64,000 nt of DNA. Origin: Mustelus asterias. Lineage: Eukaryota. Shown here one piece after another: positions 35,299-42,501 of the stretch. The stretch is taken from NCBI RefSeq assembly GCF_964213995.1, contig NC_135811.1, positions 97,092,001 through 97,156,000 on the forward strand, written 5' to 3'. Position 1 is the first letter of the stretch; each line of letters opens with the position of its first letter. The translations under genes and the position numbers were made by a program. The notes beneath the pieces were generated by a model. The model was given only the letters and a program-made list of their open reading frames with translations. It ran no database searches and had not been told where the DNA came from.

Positions 35299-35341
35299 TT
35301 ACTTGGATCTTGCTCTCATCTTCCTCCTCTTGCGTTTCAAT
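35299..35341 (-). CDS. RPL41: Ribosomal protein L41, coding exon 3
   Basis: ag|A TTG AAA CGC AAG AGG AGG AAG ATG AGA GCA AGA TCC AAG TAA = (R)[13 protein letters not shown]; AG acceptor at 35342-35343. Confidence 0.95.
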
Positions 35342-35457
35342 CTATATCGGAATAGAGACAGTAGGAGTTTAAAGTGAGTTATGCGCTGCTAATTGCATTT
35401 ACAAAATTGAAGCAGCTAACATGCAAAAAAATGGTTAAACTCTTTTTATAATCTAAC

Positions 35458-35740
35458 CATAGAATCTCTACATTGCGGAAAGATGCCATTCAGCTCATCG
35501 AGCCTGCACCGACAACAATCCCACCCAGCCCCTATCCCTGTAACACCACACATTTACCCTGCTAATCCCCCTGACACTAAGGGGTAATTGAGCATGGCCA
35601 ATCAACCTAACCTAAACTTCGGGAGGAAACTGGAACACCGGGAGGAAACCCACCCAGACACAGGGAGAACGTACAAACTCCACACAGTAACCCGAGTCTG
35701 GAACTGAACCCAGGTCCCTGGCGCTGTGAGGCATTGTGCT
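35458..35740 (-). mobile_element. tRNA-derived SINE, tail type A
   Basis: Reverse-complement SINE within RPL41 intron 2. Confidence 0.75.
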
Positions 35741-36218
35741 GCCCTGCAGGAAACAGGGGGAAGAATTTTCCCCCTCATTTCTATATTCCAGTATTACATT
35801 CTTTCTACACAACACTGTTCAAAAACATGAAAAAGAAAATATGTTTTACGCTGACTGTTTTAGCTGATTGACTCTGGAGTGCTGGTCCTGGTTTTCAAAT
35901 CCCTTCACGGCCTCATCCATCCCCATCTCTCTAATCTCCTCCAATCCCACAATCTTCCAAGATATCTGCGCTCTTTGGATTCTCATGTTCCCAATTACAC
36001 CGTGGTGGTGCCATGCCTCGAGTTGCCTAGATTCCAAGCTGTGGAATTCCTTCCCACATCTCTCCGCCTGTCAAACTTCACTTTCCTAAACTTTTGGTCA
36101 TTTGATCTTTTATTTCCTTATGTGGCTCTGTGTCATATTCTGTTTTGTAATGCTCTTTTGAACCGCTTTGTCATGTTCGTTGTGTTAAAGGCATTGTACA
36201 AATTTAAGTTGTTGTTGA

Positions 36219-36532
36219 GGGTGGGGTAGCGCAATGGTTAGCACTGCTGCTTCACAGCACCAAGGACCCGGGTTCAATTCCGGCCTCGGGTCACTTTGTG
36301 TGTGGAGTTTGCACATTCTCCCCGTGTCTGCGTGGGTTTCCTCCGGGTGCTCTGGTTTCCTCCCACAGTCCAAAGCTGAGCGGGTTAGGTTGATTAGCTA
36401 AATTGACCCTTACTGTCAGGGGGATTAGCAGGGGAAATATGTGGGGTTATGGGAATATGGCCTGGGTGGGATTATGGTCGGTGAAGACTCAGTGAGCTGA
36501 ATGGCCTCCTTCTGTACTGTAGGGATTCTATG
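36219..36532 (+). mobile_element. tRNA-derived SINE, tail type A
   Basis: SINE head, core and tail. Confidence 0.8.
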
Positions 36533-38221
36533 AGCCCGAATTGTCACAGATTTTCTCTGTATAAATACATTGAAACACATTCTGGTCAACATTCCTTTTA
36601 GAAATGTTAACATTGTTTTTACCATACCAATGATGTCACTATAATATGGTTTGCCCCTGATGTTTTTCAGTTCCAAGCCTGGGATTTCTATGCAGTTTGG
36701 TTACAGTCACAGTTCCATACTTGGTCACTGGGCAGCACTGTGGAGCATGAACTTTTCATGTGTAATTTTCTCATTAATAGTTTTCTCTATCCAAGCAGGA
36801 ATAGATGTGTGTGTCCTTTCAAACTGCAAGGATGAGATTCTTCAACACAAAGAGTGAATTCCCAAAGATTCATTTTTCCACAATTGTGCTCATGTTCTTT
36901 TGAGCTGTGTTGTGGACACCACAGAACACAGCAGCAGCACTTGGGAAAACAAACTGCAACTCAATATTGAAATAACCAAAACCAGTGCTTTTGGTCTCAA
37001 CACCAACTCCATTCCAGAGCCATGACTTCCTCTCTCTCTCCCTGGCACCTGTCCCAAGCTGAGTTAGACTGTTTGCAAGCTAGGTGTCATATTTGATCCC
37101 GAGAGGAGCTTCCGACTACATTTTCGCCAAGACTGCCTGTCTCCACCTCCATAATATCACCCAAACTCCTCAAAGCTCCAGCTTACCTGCTGCTGAAACC
37201 CTCATCCAAGTCTTGGTTACTCCTAGATTTGATTATTCCAATGCATCCCTGGCTGGTCTCCCACATTCTGCCCTGCATAATCTTGAAGTCATTCAAAGCT
37301 CTGCCGCCTGCGCCCTAACCCACACATGTTCTGTTCACCTCTGTACTTAGTGACTTGCATTAGAATCAAGGCATTGCTTAACTGAGAGCCTAAGTTCTCC
37401 TCTATGTTTTCAAATCCCTCCCTATCTCTGAAGGTGCTTGCCTTCAGTTGTCAAGGATCTAAGCTCTGGAATTCCCTCCTGACACCTCAACCCCTCTTCT
37501 TCCTCCTACAAGATACTTCTTAAAACCTACCTCTCCAACCAAAATTTTGGCCATCTATCCTAATATCTGGGTCAAATTTTGATAACGCCCCAGTGAAGCA
37601 CCTCGAGATGCTTTATGTTAAAGGTGTTATATAAACACAAGTTATCATTTTCATTCCAAGTTTGTTTTACTATGGGATAATGATGGTAGACAGTTTAATA
37701 ATCTACTGCGGAAAGAATAAGCAACCTGTTCGGTCTTAGCTTTGTGGTGACTGCTTTACTTCACATAGTAAAAGAGATTTAAAAGCTGCAGTTATTTATT
37801 TGATGCAATTTTGCAATTCTTTTGTCACTGCTTCCAAAGCCGGAGGGAGGAAACAACCAACATTCAAACACAATTTGTTTAGTCATATGTATGGCAGACA
37901 GTTTTGAACAAACTCTGAAAAATTCAAGTGTGTGAAACAGGTTGAGCTGGAACAGGTTAGGCCAGTTATATATGAATGACACTTTACAAAATGATTTCAT
38001 TGCAGCAGTTACAATTTTTTTTAAAAAATTGCTCGTGGGAAGTTGGCGTCACTGGCTAAGCCAGCATTTCTGGCCGTCCAAATTGCCCTTGTGAAGGTGA
38101 TGGTGAAGCTAGTCAGAAGCTTTTTCCCGGGTGGAAGAGTCAATTACCTGGAGGCATAGGTTTAAGGTGCGAGGGGCAAGGTTTAAAGGAGATGTACGAG
38201 GCAAGTTTTTTTTTAAACAGA

Positions 38222-38930
38222 GACCATAAGAAATAGGAGCAGAATTAGGCCACTCGGTCCATTGAGTCTGCTCTGCCATTCAATCATGGCTGATATTTTT
38301 CCCATCCCCATAACGCTTGATCCCCTTATTAATCAAGAACCTATCTATCTCGGTCTTATAGATACTCAATGACCTGGCCTGCAGAGCCTTCTGCGGCAAA
38401 GAGTTCCACAAATTCACCACTCTGGCTGAAGAAATTCCTCCTCATCTGTTTTAAAGGATTGTTCCTTTAGCCTGAGGTTGTGCCCTCAAGTTCTAGTTTT
38501 TCCTCCTGGTGGAAAAATCCTCTCCACATCCACTCTATCCATTGCAGTTGCAGTATCCTGTAAATTTCAATAAGATCCCCCCTCACCCTTCTAAACTCCA
38601 ACGAGTACAGACCCAGAGTGTTCAACTGTTCCTCATACGACAAGCTCTTCATTCCAGGGATCATTCTTGTGAACCTCCTCTGGACCCTTTCCAAGACCAG
38701 CACATCCTTCCTTAGATATGGGGCCCAAAACTGCTCACAATACTTTAAATGGGGTCTGACCAGAACCTTATACAGCTTCAGAAGTACATCCCTGCTCTTG
38801 TATTCTACATTGCATTTGTCTTCCTAACTGCCGACTGAACCTGCACGTTACCTTAAGAGAATCTTGAAAGATGACTCCCAACTCTCTCTGTGTTTCTGAT
38901 TTCCTCAGCATTTTCCCATTTGGAAAATAA
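38222..38930 (-). mobile_element. CR1-type LINE 3' fragment
   Basis: LERVQRRFTRMIPGMKSLSYEEQL..LGLYSLEFRRVRGDLIE (ORF 38467-38703). Confidence 0.8.
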
Positions 38931-40744: not shown

Positions 40745-40891
40745 TGATGTGACTTCTCAAAAAAGATTTAAATTAGGAAGACAATAAGTAGTCAGGAATA
40801 TGATTGGGATCGAAGTGGAGAACCAAAATGGAGGCCATCCCTCACTTCACATTTTAATAAAATGCTGAAAACATTAAAGGTTTATACAGAC

Positions 40892-40914
40892 CTTCGCATC
40901 CGTTTCTTCCTCCA
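40892..40914 (-). CDS. RPL41: Ribosomal protein L41, coding exon 2 (23-nt microexon)
   Basis: tttcttcttttaatctctag|TGG AGG AAG AAA CGG ATG CGA AG|gtctgt = WRKKRMR(R). Confidence 0.95.
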
Positions 40915-41234
40915 CTAGAGATTAAAAGAAGAAAAATAGACGATTAGAAATGTTTGTCTTTTTTTTCTAGAACATGGACAGATCTACTCTTGCATGTATT
41001 TTGGATTTATCAGAGATTAAAGTGCATCATTTACTGCAACTCAGTAATGCACAGCAGCTCTAGGTAAAAATTATGCTCAATGAAATCCAAGCCAATCTGG
41101 TTGGTTTCCAATCACTTCTTCCTTATAGCAAAGATCTTCTTTGGCTATCCTCTACACAACTCGTGTCCCAAATCTACATACCTGTCCTGTTCCCCTCAAC
41201 CATTCACATAATCTCAAATAAATAGCAAGGTAAA

Positions 41235-41447
41235 TGCAAATTACTGTGGATGCTGGAATCTGAAACAGAAAATGCTGGAAAATCTCAGGTCTGACAGCCT
41301 CAGAGAGAACAGAACTAAGTCTGGATGATTCTTCATCAGAGTGACAAAGCTCATCAGCTCTGAAGTTATCCAGACTTGAAATGTTAACCTTGTTTTCTCT
41401 CCAGAGATGCTGTCGGACCTGCTGAGATTTTCCAGCATTTTGTTTTT
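41235..41447. repeat. Palindromic dispersed repeat with degenerate hammerhead-like core
   Basis: aaaatgctggaaaatctcag...ctgagattttccagcatttt inverted arms; CTGATGA on the minus strand at ~41333-41339. Confidence 0.7.
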
Positions 41448-42489
41448 AAAACCAATCTCAAATATTAATATGCTTTCTGCTGCATTCATTGGCTTTGATT
41501 CTGCCTCGTTTTATTGTATACAGGATGGCTCTTTTGTTTTCCATCTTAAATCTTTTGCATTTAACCTCATATCTGTGGCTCCTCAATATTAACCCCCTAA
41601 GATCATCAGTAAGTGTTTCTCTCATATCCACCCAATCACCCCACAATCTCCTTCGATGATTCTGAAGAGTCAGTCCACAACTGAAACACCATTCTCTGCA
41701 CTGCCTTGGGCTTCATCAGTCATACACATTTTTAAAATCAGAGTTTATTTTAGGCATACATCCAGTGTTTAGATGTTCACAGGGAGTTGGTGATGCAATG
41801 ACATTGAACTAATAATCCAGAAATCCTGGAAAATGCCCTGGGAGCCTGGGTTTGAATCTCACCACAGCAGGTGGTGAAATTTGAAATCAATAACAAAACT
41901 AAAAAGTAACTGTGAAACTGCTGTTGTTATATCTGGTTCATTGTGGAAGGAAATCTGCTGTCCTCACCTAGTCTGGCCTACATGTGACTCCAGATCCACA
42001 GCAATGTGATTTGACTCTGAAATAGCCTCGCCTGCCACTCAGTTCAAGGGATGGGCCAGTGACACCCACATCCCCATTAAAAAAATAACATGAGGATGGT
42101 ATCCAACCAATAAATATCCCTAAACCATCAGTATCCTCCCCCCAAACAGAGAACATGGCTAAAGCAGCCACATGTTGGTGAGAGCCAGTCTGATTTACCA
42201 TTTGAATTGAAGCTCGTTCTGTCCCAACCGAGAATCTGAGTTTGTGCCCTCTTTAAACAACATTAATAATTTAAACACAATTCCCTTAATTACCCTCATC
42301 CATCGAATATGAAATGGGGGGAGGGGGATGGGTGAGGCAGCAATGTCCCAGCAGCATGGCAACGACCCTCACTATAAACATGAGGGGAGGGAGGGAGGGA
42401 CAAATAAATGCCTTCCACATAAAACATTTACCATTGCTTTGTATAAATCATGACTTTAGGGGCTGATTCACTCCCCAGACTTCACTCAC

Positions 42490-42501
42490 CTTGGCCCTCA
42501 T
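42490..42501 (-). CDS. RPL41: Ribosomal protein L41, coding exon 1
   Basis: agcATG AGG GCC AAG|gtgagt = MRAK followed by a consensus donor; the three exons join to 78 nt, [25 protein letters not shown]. Confidence 0.95.

What the first reader, a model, noticed from the sequence alone, without database searches (positions are those of the whole stretch)
35299..42501. Hidden three-microexon RPL41 gene between the hsp30 cluster and KAT2A
Seen: coding exons of 12, 23 and 43 nt (42490-42501, 40892-40914, 35299-35341, minus strand) with GT-AG sites and matching phases. They splice to [25 protein letters not shown], followed by AATAAA. The introns are 1575 and 5550 nt and full of TEs, so the gene is invisible to ORF scans and easy to miss in annotation. 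Known: this matches eL41/RPL41, with the same [12 protein letters not shown] exon split as the human gene, so it is not a retrocopy. Human RPL41 lies at 12q13 near RAB5B/ERBB3, while KAT2A-HSPB9-RAB5C lies at 17q21, a paralogous region. Inference: this may be a whole-genome-duplication ohnolog retained next to KAT2A in cartilaginous fish and lost in mammals.
Basis: partly seen in the sequence, partly recalled or inferred. Interest (0 to 1): 0.8.

Follow-up and report, generated by a model that had tools for sequence, protein, structure and literature searches.

The report
Ancient duplicate RPL41 gene beside KAT2A
The three tiny exons form a real, spliced gene for the smallest ribosomal protein, RPL41; this shark-like genome holds two intact intron-bearing copies and part of a third, and the two intact ones sit on chromosomes twinned by the early vertebrate genome doublings, so they are probably old duplicates kept here but reduced to one in humans.

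Summary
Confirmed. Exons of 12, 23 and 43 nt with GT-AG introns of 1575 and 5550 nt give a 25-aa eL41 ending ARSK. Five processed retrocopies carry this gene's UTRs with both introns removed, so it was spliced in the germ line. Its own coding changes since then are 2 synonymous and 0 nonsynonymous, against 18 in 214 3'UTR bases (p about 0.01-0.02).

It is not the only copy. An exon-2 pattern finds 3 places: this gene (RAB5C-hsp30-RPL41-KAT2A-DHX58, 10 Mb from a Hox9); a four-exon, TOP-led QRSR gene beside PIKFYVE on the ERBB4/Hox9 chromosome, parent of 38 of 43 retrocopies; and exons 1-2 of a third on an unplaced satellite contig. The two intact genes are synonymous-saturated with unalignable 3'UTRs. 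No copy was found next to PA2G4 or ZC3H10, human RPL41's neighbours.

Best reading: retained whole-genome-duplication ohnologs, with this one a minor copy on a promoter shared with KAT2A. No RNA reads or other species' genomes were examined. Ten literature searches listed no such report. A known kind of thing (ribosomal-protein ohnologs), new for RPL41.

The parts
42490..42501 (-). RPL41 coding exon 1 (MRAK), donor GTGAGT
   Evidence: joined to exon 2 in 5 of 5 retrocopies
42502..42547 (-). 5' leader, contiguous with exon 1. Retrocopy alignments start at about 42518, 42523, 42525, 42526 and 42547. No clear TOP tract: the longest pyrimidine run at the 5' end is 5 nt (42534-42538)
   Evidence: the start site is inferred from retrocopy ends, not measured
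40915..42489 (-). intron 1, 1575 nt, GT-AG, phase 0
40892..40914 (-). RPL41 coding exon 2, 23 nt
35342..40891 (-). intron 2, 5550 nt, GT-AG, phase 2
35299..35341 (-). RPL41 coding exon 3, 43 nt, ends ARSK-TAA
   Evidence: (PF05162 positions 12-25, E=1.47 for this exon alone)
35097..35298 (-). 3'UTR of about 200 nt with AATAAA at 35117-35122; the 3' end is marked by retrocopy alignment ends and A-runs
42546..42633 (.). Four NRF1-like palindromes (GCGCATGCGC, at most 1 mismatch) at 42546, 42573, 42600 and 42624, the only 4 in the 64-kb window; candidate shared bidirectional promoter
   Evidence: the motif name is recalled; CpG o/e 0.83-1.16 over 42601-43200
42899..43156 (+). KAT2A first coding exon, head-to-head with RPL41, start codons 398 nt apart
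26206..26844 (-). nearest hsp30/HSPB9-type small heat-shock gene, about 8.2 kb past the RPL41 3' end (synteny marker)

Best explanation
A functional RPL41 (eL41/eS32) gene that is an ohnolog from the early vertebrate whole-genome duplications, kept on the HoxB-type (17q21) block. SHOWN: gene anatomy; past germ-line splicing; purifying selection; a second intact intron-bearing copy on the ERBB4/Hox9 chromosome; part of a third copy. INFERRED: (1) The copies arose with the Hox paralogons: B = this gene, D = the PIKFYVE-side gene, C = human RPL41 and perhaps the partial gene on C1144. (2) It is transcribed from the 398-nt CpG-rich interval shared with KAT2A, via four NRF1-like sites, as an mRNA without a clear TOP leader. 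(3) Its 25-aa helix fills the same eB14 bridge socket as any eL41. (4) It is the minor copy and persists through dosage sharing or a different expression pattern rather than a new protein function (about 65% for this step), because its peptide matches one used as ordinary eL41 in a solved ribosome.
For: Anatomy. Of 45 non-parent PF05162 matches examined (all of the 47 except the two parent exons), 38 derive from the C14 gene, 5 from this gene, 0 from C1144, and 2 from neither. 5 of 5 show both junctions. Changes on this gene's own lineage: 2 synonymous, 0 nonsynonymous, 18 in 214 3'UTR bases; 5.1 nonsynonymous expected, Poisson P=0.006, Fisher p=0.016. Versus the C14 gene: 17 of 26 codons differ but only 2 residues (A22Q, K25R), pS about 1.05, and the 3'UTR alignment score equals shuffles (18 vs 17.6, 46% of 300 shuffles reach it). 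Synteny of this copy: RAB5C best hit, KAT2A, a RIG-I-family helicase read as DHX58, Hox9 at C11:107.4 Mb. Synteny of the C14 copy: PIKfyve, ERBB4 at 92 Mb, Hox9 at 57.9 Mb. Human RPL41's neighbours include RAB5B and ERBB3 (10.1101/088815), so each shark copy is linked to a paralog of a human neighbour. A22 is shared with Ciona (supplement of PMC7072992); Q22 is shared by the C14 gene and the commonest PDB eL41 sequence.
Against: The two intact copies share no immediate neighbouring gene family: no gene was recognised in about 100 kb downstream of the C14 copy with a crude exon finder, and ERBB4 is 9 Mb away. A 75-nt CDS cannot give a tree or a date; saturation only says 'old'. No other species was examined. 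No present-day RNA evidence was obtained. This gene's retrocopies are all 71-89% identical, while 15 of 38 C14 retrocopies are at least 90% (Mann-Whitney p=0.009), which fits low recent germ-line expression or recent decline. Hox9 paralog labels (A/B/D), KAT2B and EGFR on C2 are inferred, not tested. Alpha/beta pairing of the Hox chromosomes is itself not settled by linkage (PMC7269912).
Confidence: 0.77

Rival explanations
1. An old DNA-level transposition or segmental duplication of an intron-bearing RPL41, unrelated to genome doubling, that landed beside KAT2A and captured its promoter.
For: No shared adjacent genes between the two intact loci. This copy lacks the 5'-UTR intron and TOP leader of the C14 gene, as expected of a 5'-truncated move that borrowed a promoter. 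It sits 398 nt from the KAT2A start.
Against: Both intact copies lie on Hox9-bearing chromosomes, one about 30 kb from RAB5C exons and one 9 Mb from ERBB4, paralogs of human RPL41's neighbours. This copy keeps the outgroup residue A22, which a copy of a Q22 gene would not.
Confidence: 0.13
2. A real but recently silenced or decaying ohnolog: intact today only because loss of function is recent.
For: No retrocopy above 89% identity, 0 of 5 versus 15 of 38 for the C14 gene. RPL41 is non-essential (PMC13485352 introduction).
Against: ORF, four splice sites, poly(A) signal and CpG-rich promoter are all intact; 0 nonsynonymous changes since the retrocopies arose.
Confidence: 0.06
3. The single ordinary ortholog of human RPL41, moved or simply syntenic with KAT2A in non-mammals.
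For: No RPL41 exon was found beside PA2G4 or ZC3H10 on C75, so the human-type position looks empty in this assembly.
Against: Two other intron-bearing loci exist, one of which supplies 38 of 43 retrocopies and is closer to the human-type peptide.
Confidence: 0.02

Closest known systems
RPL41 / eL41 / eS32 (Pfam PF05162 Ribosomal_L41); human gene at 12q13.2 with ERBB3, PA2G4, ZC3H10
   Same: 25-aa Arg/Lys-rich peptide; 24 of 25 residues match the commonest PDB eL41 sequence and 25 of 25 match chain 4v6w_Cn (that chain being Drosophila is recalled).
   Different: Ends ARSK, not QRSK. Lies in the 17q21-type block head-to-head with KAT2A. Three exons with no sign of a 5'-UTR intron or clear TOP, against four exons in the C14 gene and in both tilapia genes.
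Vertebrate ribosomal-protein ohnologs RPS27/RPS27L, RPL22/RPL22L1, RPL3/RPL3L, RPL7/RPL7L1 (PMC7072992; PMC10313321)
   Same: Intron-bearing duplicates on paralogous chromosomes with near-identical proteins; for RPS27/RPS27L, retention is ascribed to subfunctionalised expression.
   Different: RPL41 is not listed among the 2R duplicates in PMC7072992, whose 13 species include no cartilaginous fish; 'rpl41' does not occur in the main text of PMC10313321.
Teleost rpl41a / rpl41b (PMC7072992)
   Same: Two intron-bearing RPL41 genes kept after a genome doubling.
   Different: Those are ascribed to the teleost 3R event and have identical proteins; the pair here differs at 2 residues and lies on different Hox paralogons.
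Processed RPL41 pseudogenes
   Same: 43 such copies were identified in this genome, 5 of them from this gene.
   Different: The window's gene has introns and splice sites and is a parent, not a retrocopy.

Membership tests
RPL41/eL41 (PF05162) | 25-aa basic peptide matching the family | tested here: met
   Translation equals PDB 4v6w_Cn; exon 3 alone scores 21.5 bits, just under the 22.3 cut-off; retrocopy L009 of this gene scores 38.1 bits.
RPL41/eL41 (PF05162) | Incorporated in the ribosome at bridge eB14 | not testable with these tools
   Inferred from identity to a solved chain; the peptide is invisible to standard MS (PMC13485352).
Functional intron-bearing gene | Spliced at the predicted junctions | tested here: met
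   5 of 5 retrocopies join exons 1-2-3; historical germ-line evidence only.
Functional intron-bearing gene | Purifying selection on the coding sequence | tested here: met
   0 nonsynonymous vs 5.1 expected, p 0.006-0.016; small numbers, majority-rule polarisation.
Functional intron-bearing gene | Expressed today | tested here: inconclusive
   No reads were laid on the locus.
Processed pseudogene | No introns, genomic poly(A) tail | tested here: not met
   Two GT-AG introns.
1R/2R ohnolog | Copies on paralogous chromosomes with paralogous linked genes | tested here: met
   Hox9 on C11 and C14; RAB5C and ERBB4 versus human RAB5B and ERBB3. Chromosome-scale only; no shared adjacent gene.
1R/2R ohnolog | Conserved intron positions and phases | tested here: met
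   12- and 23-nt coding exons at all three loci, 43-nt third exon at the two intact ones.
1R/2R ohnolog | Duplication dated between the invertebrate-chordate split and the shark-bony fish split | tested here: inconclusive
   Synonymous saturation and unalignable 3'UTRs give only a minimum age; no tree is possible on 75 nt.
1R/2R ohnolog | Same locus present in other lineages | not testable with these tools
   The genome tool holds no relatives for this genome.
5'-TOP ribosomal-protein mRNA | Cap-adjacent C plus 4-15 pyrimidines (definition recalled) | tested here: inconclusive
   Only a 5-nt run near the inferred 5' end here, against 9 nt at the C14 gene's 5' end; start site not measured.

The most novel reading that the evidence does not exclude
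This lineage keeps three of the four 1R/2R ohnologs of RPL41 (B, D and a repeat-invaded C on the X chromosome), and its main RPL41 (D, beside PIKFYVE) is not the ortholog of human RPL41: a reciprocal loss hidden because the genes are made of microexons. The KAT2A-side copy is a non-TOP, NRF1-driven, ancestral-type ARSK isoform that escapes mTOR-type control and gives tissue- or stress-specific ribosomes a different residue pair at the eB14 bridge. Its loss on the human line left HSPB9 directly on the KAT2A promoter.
Probability: 0.2. Interest if true: 0.68.

Novelty: new member of a known kind. Interest (0 to 1): 0.46.

Why it matters
Ribosomal-protein genes mostly returned to single copy after the vertebrate genome doublings. 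RPL41 would join the short list of exceptions, with two or three survivors, and the dominant copy here would be a hidden paralog rather than the ortholog of the human gene. It shows that microexon genes can hide ohnologs from ORF and BLAST surveys. It also offers a natural pair (TOP-led QRSR versus KAT2A-linked ARSK) for asking whether ribosomal-protein paralogs persist through regulation or through protein difference, at a bridge now tied to elongation fidelity (PMC13485352). It is not a new kind of system.

Tried and rejected
No reads were laid on the locus, so present-day expression is open.

Metagenome scan with a 24-nt exon-3 stretch: 0 matches. Exact look-up of the QRSR peptide: not in the protein collection, so annotation status elsewhere is unknown.

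Exon 3 of the C1144 copy: not found by two genome-wide patterns (10 and 16 matches, all on the two intact genes or at retrocopy places), nor in C1144, nor in the 270 kb of C75 examined.

Placing C1144 on C75 through its satellite: the 100 places listed of 352 were all on C1144; C1144 holds 215 forward and 0 reverse, so 137 lie elsewhere unseen; unresolved.

PF00557 did not locate PA2G4, and the C1849 hit tested was SPT16; PA2G4 was then found by walking from the C75 ERBB. ERBB exons of C75 and C1468 score best to ERBB4 and EGFR. I read C75 as ERBB3 because PA2G4 follows it; C1468 as ERBB2 is a guess; the C2 ERBB exon was fetched but not tested.

Recent segmental duplication of C1144 from C14: near the exons, similarity is limited to exon 2 and its splice sites. 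Target-site duplications of the 5 retrocopies: only short, unconvincing matches in 3 of 5. NCBIfam scan uninformative. Earlier scan findings: nothing on RPL41. PMC2447035: 0 occurrences of rpl41 in the text held.
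Full report
OBSERVATION. Joined, they give the 25-aa eL41 peptide ending ARSK and a TAA stop. The peptide equals PDB chain 4v6w_Cn and differs at one residue (22) from the commonest solved eL41, which ends QRSK. One AATAAA starts at 35122. A 28-place pattern for exon 2 with both splice sites matches 3 places in the 3.68-Gb genome and its reversed control none, so this is not chance. 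The window is G000:C11:97,092,001-97,156,000. That the animal is a shark or close kin is inferred, not tested.

SPLICING AND SELECTION. PF05162 gave 47 matches from 68 candidates. Two are the last exons of intron-bearing genes; I examined all other 45. Against spliced models, 38 derive from a gene on C14, 5 from the window's gene, 0 from C1144, and 2 match neither. The five (L009, L016, L020, L022, L028; 71-89% identical) carry this gene's 5' leader and 3'UTR and join exons 1-2 and 2-3 directly. The predicted mRNA therefore existed in the germ line. Where most retrocopies agree against the gene, the gene has changed at 2 coding positions, both synonymous, and at 18 of 214 3'UTR positions. At the UTR rate 5.1 nonsynonymous changes were expected and 0 seen (Poisson 0.006, Fisher 0.016); the retrocopies themselves show 21 nonsynonymous and 18 synonymous codon differences. 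Against this: none of the five reaches 90% identity, while 15 of 38 C14 copies do (p=0.009), so recent germ-line output looks low. Present-day expression was not measured.

OTHER COPIES. The C14 gene has four exons: a 26-nt non-coding exon that opens with a 9-nt pyrimidine tract, then exons carrying 12, 23 and 43 coding nt, with introns of 95, 842 and 2823 nt; it encodes the QRSR form. It differs from the window's gene at 17 of 26 codons but at only 2 residues. pS is about 1.05, and the 3'UTRs align no better than shuffles. The third place is the unplaced 106.6-kb contig C1144: exon 1 with a strong donor at 83,059, exon 2 with both sites at 78,121, then a 16-nt satellite filling 77.6 kb to the contig end. 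Its exon 3 was not found. Over 35 nt it differs from the C14 gene at 2 positions and from the window's gene at 5; this is too little to build on. It may be an intact gene broken by the assembly, or a dead one.

SYNTENY. Around the window the order is RAB5C (best PDB hit), the hsp30 cluster, RPL41, KAT2A and a RIG-I-family helicase read as DHX58, with a Hox9 10 Mb away. In human, KAT2A ends at chr17:42,121,358 and HSPB9 begins at 42,121,431 (table rows in PMC5473753), so nothing lies between them. The C14 gene lies downstream of PIKFYVE (kinase exon 34 kb away), 9 Mb from ERBB4 and 25 Mb from a Hox9. Human RPL41 is listed with IKZF4, RPS26, ERBB3, PA2G4 and ZC3H10, near ESYT1 and RAB5B (10.1101/088815). 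That block is on C75 here, but split: an ERBB read as ERBB3 followed by PA2G4 at 12.56-12.67 Mb on the minus strand, and a CCCH-finger gene read as ZC3H10 followed by an ESYT at 14.23-14.33 Mb on the plus strand. No RPL41 exon was seen in 63 kb past PA2G4 or 26 kb before ZC3H10. The break falls where RPL41 stands in human (order recalled). In sharks the human-12-like chromosome is the X and its HoxC region is invaded by repeats (10.1101/2022.10.17.512540; 10.1101/2025.06.08.657570). That would suit C1144, but its placement is unproven. The labels HoxB, HoxD and HoxA for C11, C14 and C2 rest on linked genes and the recalled human map. The two intact copies share no adjacent gene family, which is the main gap in the case.

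POLARITY. Ciona RPL41 ends ARSK (supplement of PMC7072992), as does the window's gene, while the C14 gene and the commonest PDB sequence have Q22. This fits A22 being ancestral and Q22 shared by the C and D copies, in line with the ERBB3/ERBB4 affinity seen. It is a single residue, the wheat chain also has Q, and the pairing of Hox chromosomes is not fixed by linkage (PMC7269912).

HOW IT PROBABLY WORKS. The RPL41 and KAT2A start codons face away from each other 398 nt apart. The interval is CpG-rich and holds four NRF1-like palindromes, the only four in the window (motif name recalled). Retrocopy 5' ends fall just downstream of the last one. I infer a shared bidirectional housekeeping promoter giving a three-exon mRNA of about 320 nt plus tail, without a clear TOP leader, beside a TOP-led major gene on C14. 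The product should sit between 18S helices 44 and 45 at bridge eB14 like any eL41 (PMC13485352). Retention through dosage sharing or different expression, as argued for RPS27/RPS27L (PMC10313321), is more likely than a new protein role, since the ARSK peptide serves as ordinary eL41 elsewhere. These steps are inference.

PRIOR KNOWLEDGE. A chordate survey lists 2R duplicates for RPL3, RPL7, RPL22 and RPS27, assigns the teleost RPL41 pair to 3R, and finds one copy in tetrapods and gar; its 13 species include no cartilaginous fish (PMC7072992). Ten searches of the open-access library listed no paper whose title or abstract opening describes RPL41 paralogs in sharks or an RPL41 beside KAT2A or PIKFYVE; some searches were the direct tests and returned 0, 2 (yeast) and 1 (unrelated) papers. 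Subscription journals, figures, bioRxiv supplements and genome-annotation databases were not seen, so automatic annotations may already hold these genes. What I saw: PMC7072992 passages, section 2.2 and one supplement passage; PMC13485352 introduction and passages; passages only of PMC11383705 (8 zebrafish paralog pairs detected by MS, RPL41 not among them), PMC10313321, PMC5473753, PMC7269912, 10.1101/088815, 10.1101/2022.10.17.512540 and 10.1101/2025.06.08.657570; search listings only for the rest.

VERDICT. It is a new member of a known kind. Interest 0.46.

Noticed in passing
G000:C14:82,865,270-82,869,354 (L021): Four-exon RPL41 with a pyrimidine-led non-coding first exon, ending QRSR-TGA, downstream of PIKFYVE; parent of 38 of 43 retrocopies, some over 99% identical.
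   Followed up: yes
G000:C1144:1-83,059 (L052-L063): RPL41 exons 1 and 2 with perfect splice sites, followed by a 77.6-kb array of a 16-nt GC-rich satellite inside what would be intron 2; exon 3 not found; 137 exact satellite matches lie on other contigs not seen.
   Followed up: partly
window 525-1172 (+), 11578-12225, 15562-16209, 20708-21355, 26206-26844 (-), fragment 11055-11222; two more within 8 kb upstream of the window: Intronless hsp30 cluster, copies 89-94% identical in protein, in mixed orientation, where human has the single HSPB9.
   Followed up: partly
window 42546-42633: The four NRF1-like palindromes are spaced 27, 27 and 24 nt, i.e. a short tandem repeat has multiplied the site.
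   Followed up: partly
G000:C75:12.56-12.67 Mb and 14.23-14.33 Mb: The ERBB3-PA2G4 and ZC3H10-ESYT1 halves of the human 12q13 block lie 1.7 Mb apart on opposite strands; inversion or scaffolding flip not distinguished. A 200-N gap next to a G-rich repeat lies between ZC3H10 and ESYT1 (L134).
   Followed up: partly
G000 C2:107.06 Mb, C14:57.87 Mb, C11:107.41 Mb: Only three Hox9 activation-region matches; no fourth (HoxC9-type) was found by this one search.
   Followed up: no
L096 (C75) and L097 (C1468): The presumed ERBB3 exon scores higher to human ERBB4 than to ERBB3, and the presumed ERBB2 exon higher to EGFR than to ERBB2, so best-hit naming would mislabel them.
   Followed up: partly
G000:C12:55,283,506 and 58,585,013 (L081, L082): Two RPL41 retrocopies 3.3 Mb apart with nearly the same score and span, likely one insertion duplicated later.
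   Followed up: no
G000:C797:118,257-118,592: A receptor L domain matching PF01030 positions 1-111 within one 252-aa open frame on an unplaced contig; not examined.
   Followed up: no
L031 (C14:82.886-82.887 Mb): LTR-retrotransposon-like RT/RNase H and integrase-like frames in a CpG-rich stretch between PIKFYVE and the C14 RPL41 promoter.
   Followed up: no
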